Positions 36,001 to 42,000 of a stretch of 64,000 nucleotides of DNA are shown one piece after another. Position numbers: made by a program. The number at the start of each line of letters is the position of its first letter. The stretch's first letter is position 1. This DNA comes from Ruditapes philippinarum (Eukaryota), in NCBI RefSeq assembly GCF_026571515.1, contig NW_026860107.1, positions 62,001 to 126,000 on the forward strand. The letters are read 5' to 3'.

Positions 36001-39000
36001 GAAAAAAACATGATTACAACAATGTAATGCTTTAAATATATTGAAATTGCTTTTGAAAGATTTTTCTCACAAGAACATATGTGAACAACAAGAAATTTAA
36101 CAAACAAACCCATAATTTGCTTTAAAATTTATGGATTGTTGGTATATTCCACTTTCGCACTTTCGTTGCTGCCGATACACAAAAAATTCTCCGTTTCGCT
36201 TTTTAGTCATCCCGATAATCATCACGTGACCGTTGTTTTTATTCAGATTTGCAAGCTGAAAGGTGTTTAAACGCTTTTCCCACAAAATTGGAGAAAATAT
36301 GTATTTCAAACGACTTGCCAATCCAAAGAACACATATCAATGTATCACTGATTCTGTTTGAATGTCCCTAACACGCAGGTAACAAAAAATTATCGGTTCG
36401 TGAAATTTTACTTTTTTTTGTGACATTCGGCCGTACCTCAGTGGAGTACCTTTAACTTCAGACGATTTGAGGCCCAGCAGACAATCTATACATCCAAACA
36501 TCGCTTTTCAGGCAGTACTTAGTGTAACCACACTCACAAATGTTGGGCTGCATCAGAAGATTGTGTATGACTCTGTTAACCTAAATCTTGGCGGCGGCTA
36601 TCATCACCTTTCAGGCATCTTCATTGCCCCTGTTTCTGGCATATATATGTTTTGTACATCTGTATTATCAGAATATCATGCCTATATTGAAGTTGGAATA
36701 ATAAAAAATGGTAATCAGCTAGCCGGTGCTTATGCAAAATCTGGTGGGCAATCTACCTATGACCAGGGGGCTGCTTCTGTTGCCATGCAATTAAATATCG
36801 GTGACGAAGTTTGGGTTGAAAATCGTTGGCCAGCAGACGCACAAATACGTGGTCAAGGTTTGCATACAAGTTTTACTGGTGTTCTTGTTGTGCCAATGTG
36901 AAATGAAACAATTAGATGATTAAACTTTGTTACTGGTTCTGAATTTTGTTATATCTTACTAAATTGTACATGATTTTAATATATAACGATAAACGAGCTC
37001 CTCCCTTTACATTAATGGTTTATATTTGTGTACACAGAATAATATGGTTTACAAATTGAATGTTCCTTAGGGGGGGTCATATAAATATCACACCACGCTT
37101 AGCGAGATATGGCAAAAGGAACATATGACATGTTATTTCAACTGAGATCTGAGGGTCATTTGGTTGTGTAATCATGTGATATTATGATTATTATAGCAAA
37201 TGAACCACGTGATGTATAACAAAATTTAGTTTCTTATAATTTAAATAAAACTCAATGATAGAAAAAAAATCTAAGAATTGTTAAAAATGGAAAACAAACA
37301 AACGCAAATTCATCATATGTTTAAAAAAAGTTTATGAATAAAACGTTTAACTTATCAAAATTAGGCTTTGAACCAGATCGAGCTTTACTAGTATAATTTC
37401 TGTTGAAAACGTGTATAGATATACATAACTGGAGTGCAGGTATTAGTTATCCGCATACCAAAGCATACCCATTTATTGGCTCATTTTTCCTTGAGGTCAC
37501 TTATTGTGAAGGCAGAGATAGAACTATCATATTTAGATGCTCATTCATTGGTTACCCTTTTCTGGGGTTTTATATTGAGAAAACAGGGAACGTTTTTATA
37601 TTGTTGCCTGATACAAAACATTAAAAAAACACGGCAATCTGATTAATACTCAGAGGCTACGCCCCTCGTACAAATCAGATACCCTTGTGTTTCGATGCTC
37701 TTTCTATTACTTTTATATCTTTTCTTGCTCTTTACTAATGTGTATGTAATTGTCAACATATTTAGGAAGTAAATATACTAGTATATGATGTTGGAAAAGA
37801 ATGACCATAATTATATCAGACATATCTGAAGTCTGCCTTTCATATATAATCAAAAAAGAACTGTATTGTAATAGGTGATATATAAAATTACTCGTGCTGT
37901 AGAATTGAACATACATGTATAATGGAATTTGAGGAAAAGGAATTATATGACAGCAATTTACTGAAATACAGATTAACATTGCAAAGGCTTTATTCAAAGC
38001 TGACTCTGTCTTATTAGTAACGTTTTAAACTTATGACATCTGAGACAATCCTGATATTAAGTCAATAATACCACACATTTCTTATCTTTCATTCCATGAT
38101 CTGTTGTAAACATTAACATTAATAAAATAAACATTAATACCCTTACCTTCTCTTTCTGCTTCCTGTCACGTTCCTCTATACGTTTTTGTTTCCTCTCATT
38201 CTTCAGTTCTTCTTCTTTCTTCTTCTTAGCTTCCCTTTCTTCCTTCTCTTTCAGTCTTTTATTTTTCCTCTCAATTCATCATCGACTTATTTCTGCTTTC
38301 TTTTTCTTTCTAATTCATTTTTTCTCTTCTCTGATACTTCCTTCTTCTTAGCGGCTAGGTCCTCTTTTTCCTACATAAATAGGAATTGAAAATTAGTATA
38401 ACTTGTATATTGGGATATTTTGTTACAAAACATGTTTGCTATCGTTCTTTACTGTTAAGATACGAATATTCACAAAAAAAATGCATACTTAAGCATAGAA
38501 ATGATTACAAAAATCTAGATAATTCAACTTTTCTGGAAAATATATCGCAATAAGATAAAATTTCGTGATATGTACCTTCAATTACTCATAAATTAAAAAT
38601 GGGTTACGATATATGTTTTGAAATGTTTTTAAATTATCGCAATGACAGTTATGTATACGACATGCAGTCGTATTACTACCATAGCGTTTATAGTTAATCG
38701 AGAAACAACGCAGGCAAACCTTTAATTGATTCAACATTTCTTGGCCACTTATGAGCCTTCCCTCTGCTACCACTCTAGACTTTTTTGCTTGTGTGTTCTG
38801 TGGTTTAGTTGGCGGAGGTAGAAGAACATTTTCCAGAGACTCTGATATCATGCCTCTCCTTACCAATGGATTGGTAAGGAACGACCCACAGGTGCTACAT
38901 GTCCTTACCTCATCTACTTCTAAAAACAATGCAAATATTGTTAAAGTATTAAAAAATTATATATCAAATATTTACTGCTTTCTTGAAGTGTGTTTAGATA

Positions 39001-42000
39001 TTACGAAATATAAAAAGAATTACTTTATCCGATAGTTTCTTTTTTTTTGTTTATTTGTTTTTGTTGTTTTATTTTTTGTTTGTTTGGGGTTTTTTTTTTT
39101 GGCAGAAAAACTGCCTTACCGGTACTAATTAAATTTACAAACAAATGCATCGTACTCGGCAAGTTTTACCTTCAATAAATGTTGGCTTCACTATTTGCGT
39201 TTGATCAATGATAGAGGGGTTAAATGGACAAATCCCTGTTTTCGTGAAGCCGTCAGCTATAGTTGCAGGAGCGATTTTGTCCATTGCGTGCTTTAATAAA
39301 ACCGGGAATTTTGCCCTTCCTACGCTTACTGCAGTTTTTAGATATCCAAGACTTGACAGTGTTTTGGTGTAAGCGTCCTTCAAAGGTGATATACTCTGAA
39401 AGCATTTAACACATTCATCTAAAATGTTTGAAATTTAAAAGTTTCACATGTGTGCAGTTACAATAAACTTATCAATACTAAATGTATTATAAACGATAAT
39501 TTAGTTTGATGATTAGATTGTTTAGAACGCCCGGCACTCTTTTCTTAGCGAGATGTACATATTTTTGTTCGTACTGAATAGCAATTTAAGTAAAATATGT
39601 TACTAAAACATCAAATCATATTTCCCAAAGCAAATAGTGGTTACATAAACTTGTATATTACATGATTTTGTAAGCTGACTAATTATTACAAACTTACGTT
39701 CACGTCTAAAGGCTGAAGAATATGCGTGGAATGACCAGGGAGACCAAGAAGAACAATATTTTCAGCTATCGCCTTTTCAACTACTGGAATGCTAATATGA
39801 GAGTCGTGGTTATCCATGATAAGTAGGACGGGTCTTGTTCTGCCACAGTTTGGAACAAACACGCTGAAAAACCATTTTGTGAAAAGTTCACGGTCCATGT
39901 AGCCGTTTTCGCTGTGGCCAAAATACCATGACGACGGTACACTATCTGTGTAATTCTGGTGAGGTAATGAACCCTGTAATAGAAAGTACACGATAGAAAA
40001 CGTATCACTGTATATCAGTATAGAGTATAGTATACATGATAATTTTATACAGTTATATTGTACATGTAAATAGAATTATACTTTCTTCAAAGCGTTATCG
40101 CTAGCAAATGCATACTTAATAAAATACCTTGTAAATTATAAGAGGTGGTAGAAAGTGTCCATCTGCTGAGACACAATGATGTGCTGTCACGTGATCTGCT
40201 GAAGACGTCTTTCTTCTAAACAAATGCCCTCCACGAGGCCCGATTACTTTCGACCTAGGTGCCTCTTTTCCTGTTAATCCAGTTTCGTCACAATTGAAGA
40301 TCTAATAATAAAACATAACAGTTACTTAAATTATGTTTACACGGTATGCTTATTATAACGATCCGTTGTTGAATATTCTGTGTTACCTGTTTTTTCATAT
40401 TTCATATGAACATATTTTATGTATCAAATGCCATAATATATAAAAAGAGTAATATATGTAAAAGAGATAATTAGTTCGTTATAGAACGATTATTCTATAT
40501 AAGTGCCAACATAAACAATGCTTACTCTTTCTGGTTTGTTTTTCAAGTTGTATTTATCAAGAACAGACTTGAGAAGAGGAAAAAATTTGTCAAGCATCCT
40601 TTTAGATGACATGGATACTCGGGCATTGTCCATGTTTTCTGCCTTTCTTTGAGCCAAGTCTTGATGCCGCCCGAAAAACTTTGTGAACCAATCATCAGAG
40701 GGTCCTTTTTGTAGATTAAACAGTGACGTACGGCCTGAAAAATTGCAACAAATAACAGTACTTTAAACAGAACTATATTTTCATTGTACTTGAATATTGA
40801 TGTAAGAATTCTTTAAAATTCGTTCAAAATATGATTATGATAGACACATTATAATTGGTCGAGTAGATTCTAAAATTAAACCCGCAAATTAATCATGGAA
40901 CATTTTATATTACAAAACACACCTGATTGTATAACTATCTCTTGTATGTAACACCTGATCATAGCCCTGAAAAGTGGAAAGCCTTGATTCGCCATGTATA
41001 AGAGATACTGGACAAGGGAGTCCTCTTCGTGTTGTAGTTGCTGTCTTTCTGGTCCAGGTCTGTTTCCCGAGTACTTGTGTCTCACTTTGTCAGAGAGAGT
41101 TGATTTTGGTACTCCGAATATTCTAGCAGCCGCTGTAATTTTCATTTTTCTTTGACGCACAGCTGACAGAGCTGACGCTAGTTGATCTTCGGTGTATGTC
41201 TTTGGCATTATAATACCTAAAACGTTTAACCAGTAATGTACAAGTAAAATGGTTTCCTGCGGGGAACATTTTTAATGATATAAAGATATTTCATTTAACT
41301 ATGTTCAACATTGTTTTGGGGGAGGGGAGTAATAAACGTTTGTGTCAGGAATATAGTTGACAATAATCGATCAATATAGAAGAAGGTCTTTGGAAATTGG
41401 TGACCGTTGATGACAGGAGAAGTTAGAATATAAAACTATTATTTCTTTTTAAGAAAATGATTTAATATGCCTACCATTTTATAAATAATTCCAAGCAAAA
41501 AAAAAATTAAATAAATAAAGTAAACACACAAGTTTACGCAGAAAATATCTCCATTTATGGCAGATGCCAGTACGAATATTTTAATTTTGTAGAGTTTCAG
41601 TTTAAACAATTTATTGTTTGTAAAATTTGAGATACATATATTAAAGAAACATTGATAATTTTCAAACACATCATTCAAGTTTTTCCACCTTAAACGGTAA
41701 AATAATTATATAACGTAATAGTTTTTTGTTCTTAATTAGGTGTAATTGTGGCAAATTCCCTAGAGGTAATTCCGTAACGTACCGACAAACGGTATTTAGC
41801 CAGTTTAGTTTTCGAAAAGGTCAATAAACCAATCGTGTAGGGTTTACAGATCACATGCTCCTCTATGTACCTAAAACAGGTCACGTGCTCCTCCATGCCT
41901 CAAAAGTGAAACGCGTACCAATACCCTGCGGTCTCCAGACCGCAGGGAGTAATAACAATTTTTATTTTGGAAATAAGATAAATTTTAAAGTTTGTAAAAC

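What the first reader, a model, noticed from the sequence alone, without database searches (positions are those of the whole stretch)
38147..41220. Intron-rich DD35D pogo transposase with an intact catalytic core
Seen: at least 7 coding exons, with a further acceptor-like TTTAG 8 nt before the ATG and a donor after exon 7. The first six exons (457 codons) splice with no stop or frameshift, retain D(ETG)-D(NHDSH)-x35-D, and add a CxxC motif and a K/E/R-rich repeat tail. Known: DD35D spacing marks the Fot/Fot-like and Passer pogo families; most animal pogo transposases have few or no introns. A terminus with TA and a paralog-defined insertion site shows this is a mobile copy rather than a domesticated gene. 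Inference: a recently active intron-rich lineage; this copy might still make a 484 aa protein.
Basis: partly seen in the sequence, partly recalled or inferred. Interest (0 to 1): 0.65.

Follow-up and report, generated by a model that had tools for sequence, protein, structure and literature searches.

The report
Dead intron-bearing pogo transposase copy in clam
This is a broken, tail-less copy of a clam gene for a pogo-type "cut-and-paste" DNA transposase that is split by introns and, in intact relatives, ends in a chromatin-reading PHD finger; the copy is ordinary genomic debris, but its family seems undescribed.

Summary
Annotated bivalve relatives read straight across all six junctions.

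The copy is not intact. The "484 aa" end is a TAA where relatives have Glu. A +2 nt frameshift follows. The sequence specific to this copy stops 43 nt into the next intron. The final exon, which encodes a C4HC3 PHD finger in relatives, is absent from the window.

The full family protein has about 610-680 aa. It comprises HTH_psq, HTH_Tnp_Tc5, DDE_1, one long charged helix and a PHD finger, and its fold is Mos1-like. Several dispersed and often truncated loci occur per species across bivalves.

The 4.5 kb segment lies in one of four comparable units of a C1q-gene tandem array. It replaces about 770 bp rather than sitting in a clean TA site, and no terminal inverted repeat (TIR) pair exists.

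Verdict: a decayed, 3'-truncated member of an intron-bearing PHD-pogo lineage. Mobility of the family is likely but not shown. The window is clam, not human. The window's exons were searched one by one and never joined.

The parts
40923..41208 (-). Exon 1 (286 nt; ATG at 41208-41206). Encodes HTH_psq and the start of the second HTH. An acceptor-like TTTAG ends 8 nt upstream, at 41217.
   Evidence: HTH_psq 2.1e-9; aligns to residues 1-96 of the Mercenaria protein P0003 at 73% identity.
40526..40734 (-). Exon 2 (209 nt). Rest of the Tc5/CENP-B-type HTH and the linker.
   Evidence: 93% identity to P0001; junction contiguous in relatives.
40128..40301 (-). Exon 3 (174 nt), holding the first catalytic Asp (CDETG). 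It is exactly the piece that Mercenaria isoform X2 (P0002) lacks relative to X1 (P0003).
39698..39973 (-). Exon 4 (276 nt). DDE_1 core with the second and third Asp (MDNHDSH ... QPLDVN), 35 residues apart.
   Evidence: DDE_1 5.5e-14; 100% identity to P0001. D277 invariant and D313 nearly invariant in 49 relatives.
39170..39395 (-). Exon 5 (226 nt), the C-terminal part of the catalytic domain.
   Evidence: 74 of 74 residues identical to P0001 after the first residue.
38720..38919 (-). Exon 6 (200 nt). Holds the conserved CxxCG...NPLV...PPP motif of unknown role.
   Evidence: motif present in the consensus of 49 relatives. No Pfam match.
38147..38370 (-). Exon 7 (224 nt, against 74 codons or 222 nt in P0001). 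Lys/Glu/Arg-rich region that forms one long helix in the relative's model. Disabled in this copy.
   Evidence: helix 456-543 of P0003.
38287..38289 (-). Premature TAA at codon 28 of exon 7, where P0001 and P0003 have Glu. This is the '484 aa' end.
38267..38271 (-). Approximate site of the 2-nt surplus (frameshift) within exon 7.
   Evidence: similarity to P0001 switches frame between DDELR and KNKRL.
38104..38146 (-). First 43 nt of intron 7 (GT donor at 38146-38145). After it, similarity to the paralogous array units resumes. This is a deletion scar; the rest of the intron, the PHD exon and the 3' end are gone.
   Evidence: no tblastn match in the window to P0001 residues after about 460.
41209..42627 (-). 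About 1.4 kb of unit-specific DNA upstream of the ATG, with no ORF of note. It is the possible 5' part of the element. Its outer end reads, on the minus strand, TA then CTGATTTT followed by two CTAGCAGTTT(T)CCGG words. The break lies between 42617 and 42628.
   Evidence: No Rfam match.
42628..42629 (.). TA abutting the right-hand break. The paralogs also have TA at the matching place.
36404..36901 (+). C1q-domain exon of the host array gene in the same unit, about 1.2 kb away and tail to tail with the pogo copy.
   Evidence: C1q 2e-18.

Best explanation
The locus is a dead, 3'-truncated copy of an intron-bearing pogo-superfamily gene. It lies in the genome of a venerid clam, Ruditapes philippinarum or a very close relative. 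The intact family protein has about 610-680 aa. It binds DNA through two N-terminal helix-turn-helix domains (psq type and Tc5/CENP-B type). It would cut and join DNA with a Mos1-like RNase-H-fold domain carrying a DD35D triad. A roughly 90-residue charged helix then leads to a C-terminal C4HC3 PHD finger, which probably tethers the enzyme to histone H3 tails. That tethering role is inferred. Expression needs host splicing of at least seven introns. A copy entered the spacer downstream of one C1q-domain gene after the tandem array had duplicated, probably at the TA now at 42628-42629. One later deletion then removed the element's 3' part (rest of intron 7, PHD exon, 3' end) together with about 770 bp of flank. 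The remnant also gained a nonsense codon, a +2 nt frameshift and several substitutions at conserved positions. It cannot move and is very unlikely to make a working protein. Shown here: the gene structure, the domain content, the lesions, the unit-specific presence, and the multi-copy dispersed family. Inferred: that the family moves by cut-and-paste, the order of insertion and deletion, and the role of the PHD finger.
For: Gene model and junctions. In one search, relatives are contiguous across the junctions in 28, 35, 47, 45 and 43 of 49 rows for junctions 1/2, 2/3, 3/4, 4/5 and 6/7. Mercenaria isoform X2 lacks exactly exon 3. Lesions. The PHD exon is absent from the window but present in P0001, P0003, P0009 and P0021. 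Decay: 17 of 454 aligned residues differ from P0001; at 10 of those the window's residue occurs in 0 of 17 relatives, and 6 of those lie at conserved positions. Family architecture. Fold: mean pLDDT 84.8; the best PDB matches are Mos1 transpososome chains (E 3.4e-8), Sleeping Beauty and SETMAR catalytic domains, with 18 matches at E<=0.001. Dispersal: named relatives include 9 Mercenaria, 6 Ruditapes and 6 Mya loci. The clusters report different longest contigs. Many of the proteins are truncated (213-460 aa). Two Mercenaria loci (P0049, P0029) are 97% identical, share the same frameshifted tail and come from different scaffolds. Two truncated Ruditapes loci are 98% identical. Placement: 38104-42627 is unique to one unit. 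The flanking unit DNA is 76-92% identical to its paralogs, whereas the copy is about 96% identical in protein to P0001. This suggests the copy arrived after the array duplicated.
Against: No TIR pair and no target-site duplication can be shown. The site is a replacement of about 770 bp, not a clean insertion. The TA at the one possibly intact end is weak evidence in DNA that is 70% A+T. Conserved introns, plus two subfamilies shared by Ruditapes and Mercenaria at 77% and 82% identity, fit old host genes as well as old transposon lineages. The relatives' proteins are database gene predictions, and I saw no RNA data. No eukaryotic genome collection was available, so no other genomic copy could be examined.
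Confidence: 0.6

Rival explanations
1. The family is not, or no longer, a transposon. It would be a co-opted host gene family encoding PHD-plus-DDE chromatin proteins, as proposed for the intron-bearing Tc1-like TLEWI genes of bivalves. On this view the window holds a pseudogenised DNA-level duplicate of such a gene.
For: There are seven or more conserved spliceosomal introns, and splice isoforms are annotated in Mercenaria. Three complete but divergent paralogs in Mercenaria (P0003, P0009, P0021; 44-56% identical) keep the full architecture. Lineages are shared between two venerid genera at 77-82% identity. No TIRs were found here. Precedent: TLEWI elements are low-copy, lack TIRs and carry introns, and domestication has been hypothesised for them (bioRxiv 10.1101/656579; abstract and passages read).
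Against: Each species has many dispersed loci, most of them truncated. Near-identical defective copies lie on different scaffolds, and one pair shares a frameshift. The catalytic triad is kept: D277 is invariant, and D170 and D313 are nearly invariant, in 49 relatives. The copy lies in only one of the comparable array units.
Confidence: 0.3
2. One reading: a recently active mobile copy with an intact core that may still make a 484-aa transposase.
For: The triad residues and exons 1-6 are open. The copy is about 96% identical to P0001.
Against: The 484-aa end is a nonsense codon inside exon 7. A frameshift follows it, and the PHD exon and 3' end are deleted. Six substitutions fall at conserved sites, including the residue after DETG and the residue three places after the third Asp. 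There is no second end and no TIR.
Confidence: 0.05
3. P0001 (LOC132755959) and the window are two haplotypes or two assemblies of one locus. The window would then be a deletion allele, and the only evidence for a second close copy in Ruditapes would disappear.
For: A protein difference of 3.7% is within what highly heterozygous bivalves can show between alleles (general knowledge, not tested here). P0001's cluster is reported from a single contig.
Against: The two sequences differ by a nonsense codon, a frameshift and a multi-kilobase deletion. P0001's model also lacks the first 70 residues that the window keeps. More divergent Ruditapes loci exist in any case.
Confidence: 0.15

Closest known systems
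Passer family of the pogo superfamily (Gao et al. 2020, PMC7386202; Wang et al. 2023, PMC9976928)
   Same: Both have a DDE_1 domain with DD35D spacing, a small N-terminal psq/Brk-type HTH followed by HTH_Tnp_Tc5, and an animal (including invertebrate) distribution. A TA target is expected.
   Different: Passer elements are 1.6-4.0 kb and carry one uninterrupted ORF of 400-500 aa with TIRs under 30 bp (passages read). Here there are at least seven introns, relatives have 610-680 aa, and a long charged helix and a PHD finger are added. Pfam sees HTH_psq rather than BrkDBD. No phylogeny with reference Passer sequences could be made.
Fot/Fot-like family of pogo
   Same: DD35D spacing and the HTH_psq + HTH_Tnp_Tc5 pair (PMC7386202, section 8).
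   Different: Fot/Fot-like elements are reported from fungi, protists and algae, not from animals (section 6). No PHD finger is reported there: 'PHD' and 'intron' occur 0 times in that paper's main text.
TLEWI, Tc1-like elements with introns, of bivalves (Puzakov et al. 2019, bioRxiv 10.1101/656579)
   Same: An IS630-Tc1-mariner transposase gene broken by spliceosomal introns, in bivalves, with low copy number and missing TIRs. The same question arises of transposon versus co-opted gene.
   Different: TLEWI are DD36E Tc1-like, have 3-6 exons, are limited to Pteriomorpha and carry no PHD finger ('PHD' occurs 0 times). The present family is pogo-type DD35D and also occurs in Veneridae, Myidae and Dreissenidae.
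POGZ / POGK, Passer-derived vertebrate genes
   Same: A pogo DDE_1 domain (DD35D in POGZ) fused to extra chromatin or transcription domains inside an intron-containing gene (table in PMC7386202). One Mya relative is labelled 'POGZ-like' by its source.
   Different: The vertebrate fusions involve ZNF or KRAB domains, and the genes are treated as single conserved host genes. Here the added domain is a C-terminal PHD finger and the family is multi-copy with many broken members.
PHD-bearing transposases of other superfamilies (Ginger1, Mutator; Bao et al. 2010, PMC2836005)
   Same: Cut-and-paste transposases with 0-4 introns and extra C-terminal domains, including a PHD finger (Ginger1-9_HM; passages read).
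   Different: They have a different catalytic lineage (Gypsy-integrase-like or Mutator), not IS630-Tc1-mariner/pogo.
Mos1 mariner transposase (solved structures)
   Same: It is the best structural match of the relative's model over both the DNA-binding and catalytic parts (4u7b_A, E 3.4e-8, 397 aligned columns).
   Different: Sequence identity is only 12-13%. Mos1 has no charged helix and no PHD finger. A sequence search of the PDB gave 0 matches.

Membership tests
pogo superfamily (IS630-Tc1-mariner group) | DDE_1-type catalytic domain with a D-D-D triad | tested here: met
   Exon 4 matches DDE_1 at 5.5e-14, above the cut-off. The three Asp are present and are invariant or nearly invariant in 49 relatives. 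The relative's model has a Mos1-like fold.
pogo superfamily (IS630-Tc1-mariner group) | N-terminal paired HTH DNA-binding domains (psq/Brk/CENP-B_N plus HTH_Tnp_Tc5) | tested here: met
   HTH_psq 2.1e-9 in exon 1. HTH_Tnp_Tc5 is split between exons 1 and 2, so the exon-wise search gives only E 0.18. It is above the cut-off in relatives P0003, P0009 and P0021.
pogo superfamily (IS630-Tc1-mariner group) | Terminal inverted repeats | tested here: inconclusive
   No credible inverted pair within 38000-42760 or elsewhere in the window. The 3' end is deleted, however, so a pair cannot be expected.
pogo superfamily (IS630-Tc1-mariner group) | TA target-site duplication | tested here: inconclusive
   A TA abuts the right-hand break and is present in the paralogs. 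The other side is a deletion scar inside intron 7.
Passer | DD35D spacing | tested here: met
   35 residues between the Asp of MDNHDSH and the Asp of QPLDVN. Positions 277 and 313 of P0003.
Passer | Single uninterrupted ORF of 400-500 aa in an element of 1.6-4.0 kb | tested here: not met
   Seven exons over 3.06 kb without the last exon. Complete relatives have 611-677 aa.
Passer | Placement inside the Passer clade in a DDE phylogeny | not tested
Fot/Fot-like | Host range of fungi, protists and algae | tested here: not met
   Named relatives at over 35% identity are all bivalves. Range according to PMC7386202, section 6.
TLEWI (Tc1-like with introns) | DD36E signature | tested here: not met
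   The spacing is 35 and the third residue is Asp.
Domesticated pogo-derived host gene | Single copy per genome with syntenic orthologues | tested here: not met
   Nine named Mercenaria, six Ruditapes and six Mya loci, from clusters with different longest contigs. Synteny itself is not testable with these tools.
Domesticated pogo-derived host gene | Open reading frame maintained | tested here: not met
   This copy has a nonsense codon, a frameshift and a 3' deletion. Some relatives are complete.
PHD finger (in relatives only) | C4HC3 zinc-ligand pattern and a Pfam PHD match | tested here: met
   PHD_NSD at 25.6 bits against a cut-off of 23.9 in P0003. PHD at 24.7 against 24 in P0021, 32.0 in P0056 and 27.9 in P0063. 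The consensus is C..C ... W.GCD.C..W.H..C ... W.C..C. It is absent from the window's copy.

The most novel reading that the evidence does not exclude
Bivalves harbour an old, still-coding lineage of pogo transposons. It has kept seven or more spliceosomal introns and a histone-reading PHD finger since before venerids, myids, dreissenids, scallops and pearl oysters diverged. That would make it an IS630-Tc1-mariner element that depends on host splicing and picks its integration sites through chromatin marks, with the window holding one of its corpses. A variant of this reading is that members of the lineage have been co-opted repeatedly as PHD-plus-nuclease chromatin proteins.
Probability: 0.35. 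Interest if true: 0.6.

Novelty: new variant of a known kind. Interest (0 to 1): 0.4.

Why it matters
This copy is a relic and has no consequence of its own. It does point to a family that public annotation calls only 'uncharacterized', 'POGZ-like' or 'jerky-like'. Six full-text searches found no description of a pogo-type transposase with many introns, a long charged helix and a C-terminal PHD finger. If the family is mobile, it would be a natural case of chromatin-reader-guided integration in the Tc1/mariner-pogo group, which supplies gene-transfer tools such as Passer and Sleeping Beauty. It would also be a second, independent case, after TLEWI, of bivalve DNA transposons acquiring introns. 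If it is co-opted, it is an invertebrate counterpart of POGZ/POGK. For annotators, the practical point is that the locus is a pseudogene inside a C1q immune-gene array.

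Tried and rejected
- **TIR search:** inverted repeats within 38000-42760 gave 79 pairs, the best with 28 nt at 75% and A/T-rich, none terminal. Short-word searches with both ends against the whole window gave only chance 10-18 nt matches.
- **Other copies in the window:** none. In the self-comparison, 38104-42624 has no second match. tblastn with P0001 and P0003 hits only this locus.
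- **Missing paralog sequence:** a sensitive search for the paralogs' ~770 bp inside the 4.5 kb segment found only low-complexity matches.
- **RNA searches:** Rfam at E<=1 on 37000-43500 gave 0 matches. ARAGORN found only a distant tRNA-Pro.
- **Upstream 1.4 kb:** no ORF worth testing.
- **PDB sequence search with P0003:** 0 matches.
- **ESM Atlas search on the CxxC-motif region:** best score 0.88, unnamed clusters, uninformative.
- **PHD mapping on a tree:**
  - Set-up: I mapped the PHD tail on a FastTree of the catalytic core. Of 229 session proteins, 228 matched the core profile and 197 were kept; 31 were dropped for under 80% core coverage.
  - Whole tree: it needs 30 state changes for 37 PHD-bearing rows, so it does not show a single clean PHD clade. 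This result is confounded by truncated gene models.
  - Nearest block: among the 41 leaves nearest P0003, 25 have at least 150 residues after the core. Of these, 20 hit my PHD profile, 1 more has a Pfam PHD match, and 4 have none (P0059, P0101 and two Mytilus proteins).
- **Collections:** the closed collections (metagenome contigs, viral contigs) and genome contigs (prokaryotes only) were not used. No eukaryotic genomic copy could be fetched.
- **Supplements:** the supplementary tables of the pogo papers, which list elements per species, could not be seen. They might already list a mollusc element of this kind.

Full report
**Scope and rules.** The window has no N. It is about 30% G+C throughout. 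Exon 4 of the gene is 100% identical to a protein of the Manila clam Ruditapes philippinarum, so I take the contig for clam, not human. I never joined the exons. Where a full-length sequence was needed, I used database relatives (P0001, P0003) as stand-ins.

**The observation.** The gene lies on the minus strand. Stop-to-stop frames and junction words give these exons:

| Exon | Coordinates | Length (nt) |
|---|---|---|
| e1 | 41208-40923 | 286 |
| e2 | 40734-40526 | 209 |
| e3 | 40301-40128 | 174 |
| e4 | 39973-39698 | 276 |
| e5 | 39395-39170 | 226 |
| e6 | 38919-38720 | 200 |
| e7 | 38370-38147 | 224 |

- All introns (188, 224, 154, 302, 250 and 349 nt) are GT-AG, and the phases fit.
- Exons 1-6 give 457 codons.
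- The TTTAG 8 nt before the ATG, the donor after 38147, CDETG, MDNHDSH, the 35-residue spacing to QPLDVN and the CxxC motif are all as described.
- Run exon by exon, Pfam gives HTH_psq (2.1e-9) for e1 and DDE_1 (5.5e-14) for e4. The other pieces give nothing above the cut-off.
- The charged tail is not a DNA repeat.

**Are the junctions real?** A search with exon 4 alone, against longer proteins, found 48 proteins at E<=0.001 among 116 candidates. The best were:
- Ruditapes LOC132755959 (P0001, 547 aa, 100% over exon 4);
- Mercenaria mercenaria LOC123537512 isoforms X1 and X2 (P0003, 624 aa; P0002, 566 aa; 85%).

tblastn of P0001 and P0003 against the window matches each exon separately (E 1e-29 to 2e-57). 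The protein coordinates abut at every junction. Isoform X2 lacks exactly the 58 residues of exon 3.

I then added the exon translations as separate fragments to a 49-protein family alignment. Relatives have residues in all columns around junctions 1/2, 2/3, 3/4, 4/5 and 6/7 in 28, 35, 47, 45 and 43 of 49 rows. Junction 5/6 falls in a variable-length linker (9 of 49) and rests on P0001 alone.

Some unnamed relatives are uninterrupted ORFs on contigs barely longer than the ORF, for example 527 aa on 1,820 nt. These are either transcripts or intronless copies. The models are database predictions, and I saw no RNA data.

**What the intact protein looks like.** Complete relatives (P0003, P0009, P0021; 611-624 aa) carry HTH_psq, HTH_Tnp_Tc5 and DDE_1, and end in a PHD finger (PHD_NSD or PHD above the cut-off). 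P0001 has the PHD tail too, with weaker matches below the cut-offs.
- The family consensus keeps the ligand pattern C..C ... W.GCD.C..W.H..C ... W.C..C. It also keeps a CxxCG...NPLV...PPP motif after the catalytic domain.
- An AlphaFold model of P0003, built with that alignment, is confident (mean pLDDT 84.8). It shows two helical DNA-binding domains, an RNase-H-type core, one continuous helix over residues 456-543 (the K/E/R-rich part) and a small zinc-finger-like end.
- Foldseek against the PDB puts Mos1 transpososome chains first (E 3.4e-8, about 400 aligned columns). Sleeping Beauty and SETMAR catalytic domains follow, and 18 matches have E<=0.001. A sequence search of the PDB found nothing.
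- From recall only: the conserved Trp two residues before the zinc-binding His sits where BPTF/ING-type PHD fingers form their methyl-lysine cage. I did not test this.

**What is wrong with this copy.** Exon 7 is 224 nt here but corresponds to 74 codons (222 nt) in P0001.
- Codon 28 is TAA where P0001 and P0003 have Glu.
- About 38267-38271 the similarity jumps to another frame, a 2-nt surplus.
- After the exon-7 donor only 43 nt of intron remain before the DNA becomes the array's common sequence.
- No part of the window matches the last ~87 residues of P0001, the PHD exon.
- Against P0001, 17 of 454 aligned residues differ. At 10 of these the window's residue is found in none of 17 relatives.
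- Six of those sit at conserved positions: S/T to F; P to Q; the aromatic residue after DETG to L; a hydrophobic residue to H; I/V to S three places after the third Asp; A to E.
- The triad itself is intact, but the copy is a pseudogene.

**Where it sits.** The window is a tandem array of C1q-domain genes on the plus strand, with five units starting near 20130, 30128, 46597, 52813 and 61076. The pogo copy lies about 1.2 kb downstream of the C1q exon of the second unit, tail to tail.
- Self-comparison shows that unit similarity stops at 38103-38110 and resumes at 42617-42628.
- In two other units the same two points are about 770 bp apart. That stretch is collinear between them (77% over 968 nt). 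A third unit shares its first ~210 bp.
- So 4.5 kb replaces about 770 bp. This is not a clean insertion.
- The simplest history has two steps. The element inserted at the TA now at 42628-42629, where the paralogs also have TA. One deletion then removed the element's 3' part and the ~770 bp beside it.
- This makes the left break a scar and leaves only the right end possibly original. That end reads, on the minus strand, TA then CTGATTTT and two CTAGCAGTTT(T)CCGG words.
- No inverted partner exists in the segment or in the window.
- The flanking units are 76-92% identical in DNA, while the copy is about 96% identical in protein to P0001. This suggests arrival after the array duplicated. That dating is inference.

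**The family.** A search with full-length P0003 gave 54 proteins at E<=1e-10 among 8,000 scored candidates.
- Named hits come from Mercenaria, Ruditapes, Dreissena, Mya, three Mytilus species, Pinctada, Saccostrea, Pecten and Argopecten at 36-90% identity. Insects appear only near 30%.
- The all-against-one search of 1.84 billion representatives found 22,210 proteins at E<=0.001 and 1,513 at E<=1e-30, which is the size of the wider pogo/DDE_1 world.
- Within species the family is multi-copy and dispersed. There are nine named Mercenaria, six Ruditapes and six Mya loci from clusters with different longest contigs, and many are truncated.
- Two Mercenaria fragments are 97% identical and share one frameshifted tail. 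Two truncated Ruditapes loci are 98% identical. Two subfamilies are shared by Ruditapes and Mercenaria at 77% and 82%.
- A profile of the PHD tail, built from six members, hits 43 of 229 session proteins.
- Of the 41 core-tree leaves nearest P0003, 25 have at least 150 residues after the core. Of these, 20 hit my PHD profile, one more has a Pfam PHD match, and four have none. Over the whole tree the trait is scattered, with 30 changes for 37 carriers among 197 rows, partly because many models are truncated.

**Transposon or host gene?**
- For mobility: many dispersed and broken copies, near-identical defective copies on different scaffolds, a conserved triad, and presence in one array unit only.
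- For co-option: conserved introns, annotated isoforms, long-lived complete paralogs, and no TIRs seen.
- The same ambiguity was described for TLEWI, the intron-bearing DD36E Tc1-like elements of pteriomorph bivalves (bioRxiv 10.1101/656579; abstract and passages).
- I put mobility of the family, now or recently, at about 0.6 and co-option at about 0.3. That this particular copy is dead I hold at above 0.9.

**Comparison with the literature.**
- Gao et al. [quoted passage not shown] Passer occurs in invertebrates, and Fot/Fot-like occurs outside animals. Pogo elements are 1.2-5.2 kb with one or two ORFs and mostly TA duplications. 'Intron' and 'PHD' occur 0 times in the paper's main text.
- Dupeyron et al. 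2020 (PMC7325037, passages only) likewise has 0 occurrences of either word.
- Passer elements have one ORF of 400-500 aa and TIRs under 30 bp (PMC9976928, passages).
- PHD fingers and introns are known in Ginger1 and Mutator transposases (PMC2836005, passages).
- Six full-text searches listed no paper on a pogo transposase with a PHD finger or with many introns. I read only the listings for the last three of these searches, and supplementary tables were closed. A prior description therefore cannot be excluded.

**Verdict.** The family is a new variant of a known kind. The copy itself is ordinary decay.

Noticed in passing
window 20130-64000: Tandem array of five C1q-domain gene units on the plus strand. 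The C1q exons lie at 21761-22252, 36404-36901, 48486-48992, 54274-54750 and 62825-63304. Each is preceded by a coiled-coil-like exon. Units are 76-98% identical in DNA.
   Followed up: partly
window 31859-36446: A second segment of about 4.6 kb is specific to the same array unit. It splits the two exons of that unit's C1q gene, which are about 190 nt apart in the first unit. It has no ORF of note and only short repeated bits.
   Followed up: partly
window 6675-8694: Long inverted repeat with arms of about 490 nt at 96-98% identity and about 1 kb between them. It looks like a foldback or MITE-type element (I1-I3).
   Followed up: no
window 1714-1786 (-): tRNA-Pro (AGG) gene called by ARAGORN.
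   Followed up: no
window 42050-42130 (-): A stretch upstream of the pogo ATG that looks tRNA-like, with A-box-like and B-box-like words followed by a T run. It may be a SINE or tRNA relic. Neither ARAGORN nor Rfam calls it.
   Followed up: partly
window 41860-41960 (-): A perfect 10-bp-stem hairpin, followed by two ~19-nt direct repeats that each carry a CACGTG or CATGTG word, about 700 nt upstream of the ATG.
   Followed up: no
window 42785-42915: A 64-nt unit repeated twice (94% identity), shared with the paralogous unit at 57062-57192.
   Followed up: no
relatives P0049 and P0029 (Mercenaria): Two fragmentary loci from different scaffolds share the same frameshifted C-terminal tail at 97% identity. 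A defective copy was therefore itself copied.
   Followed up: partly
relatives, residues about 400-450 of P0003 (exon 6 here, 38720-38919): A conserved CxxCG...NPLV...GL.P..LA.IL.PPP motif lies after the catalytic domain. It has no Pfam family, is modelled with low to medium confidence, and its role is unknown.
   Followed up: partly
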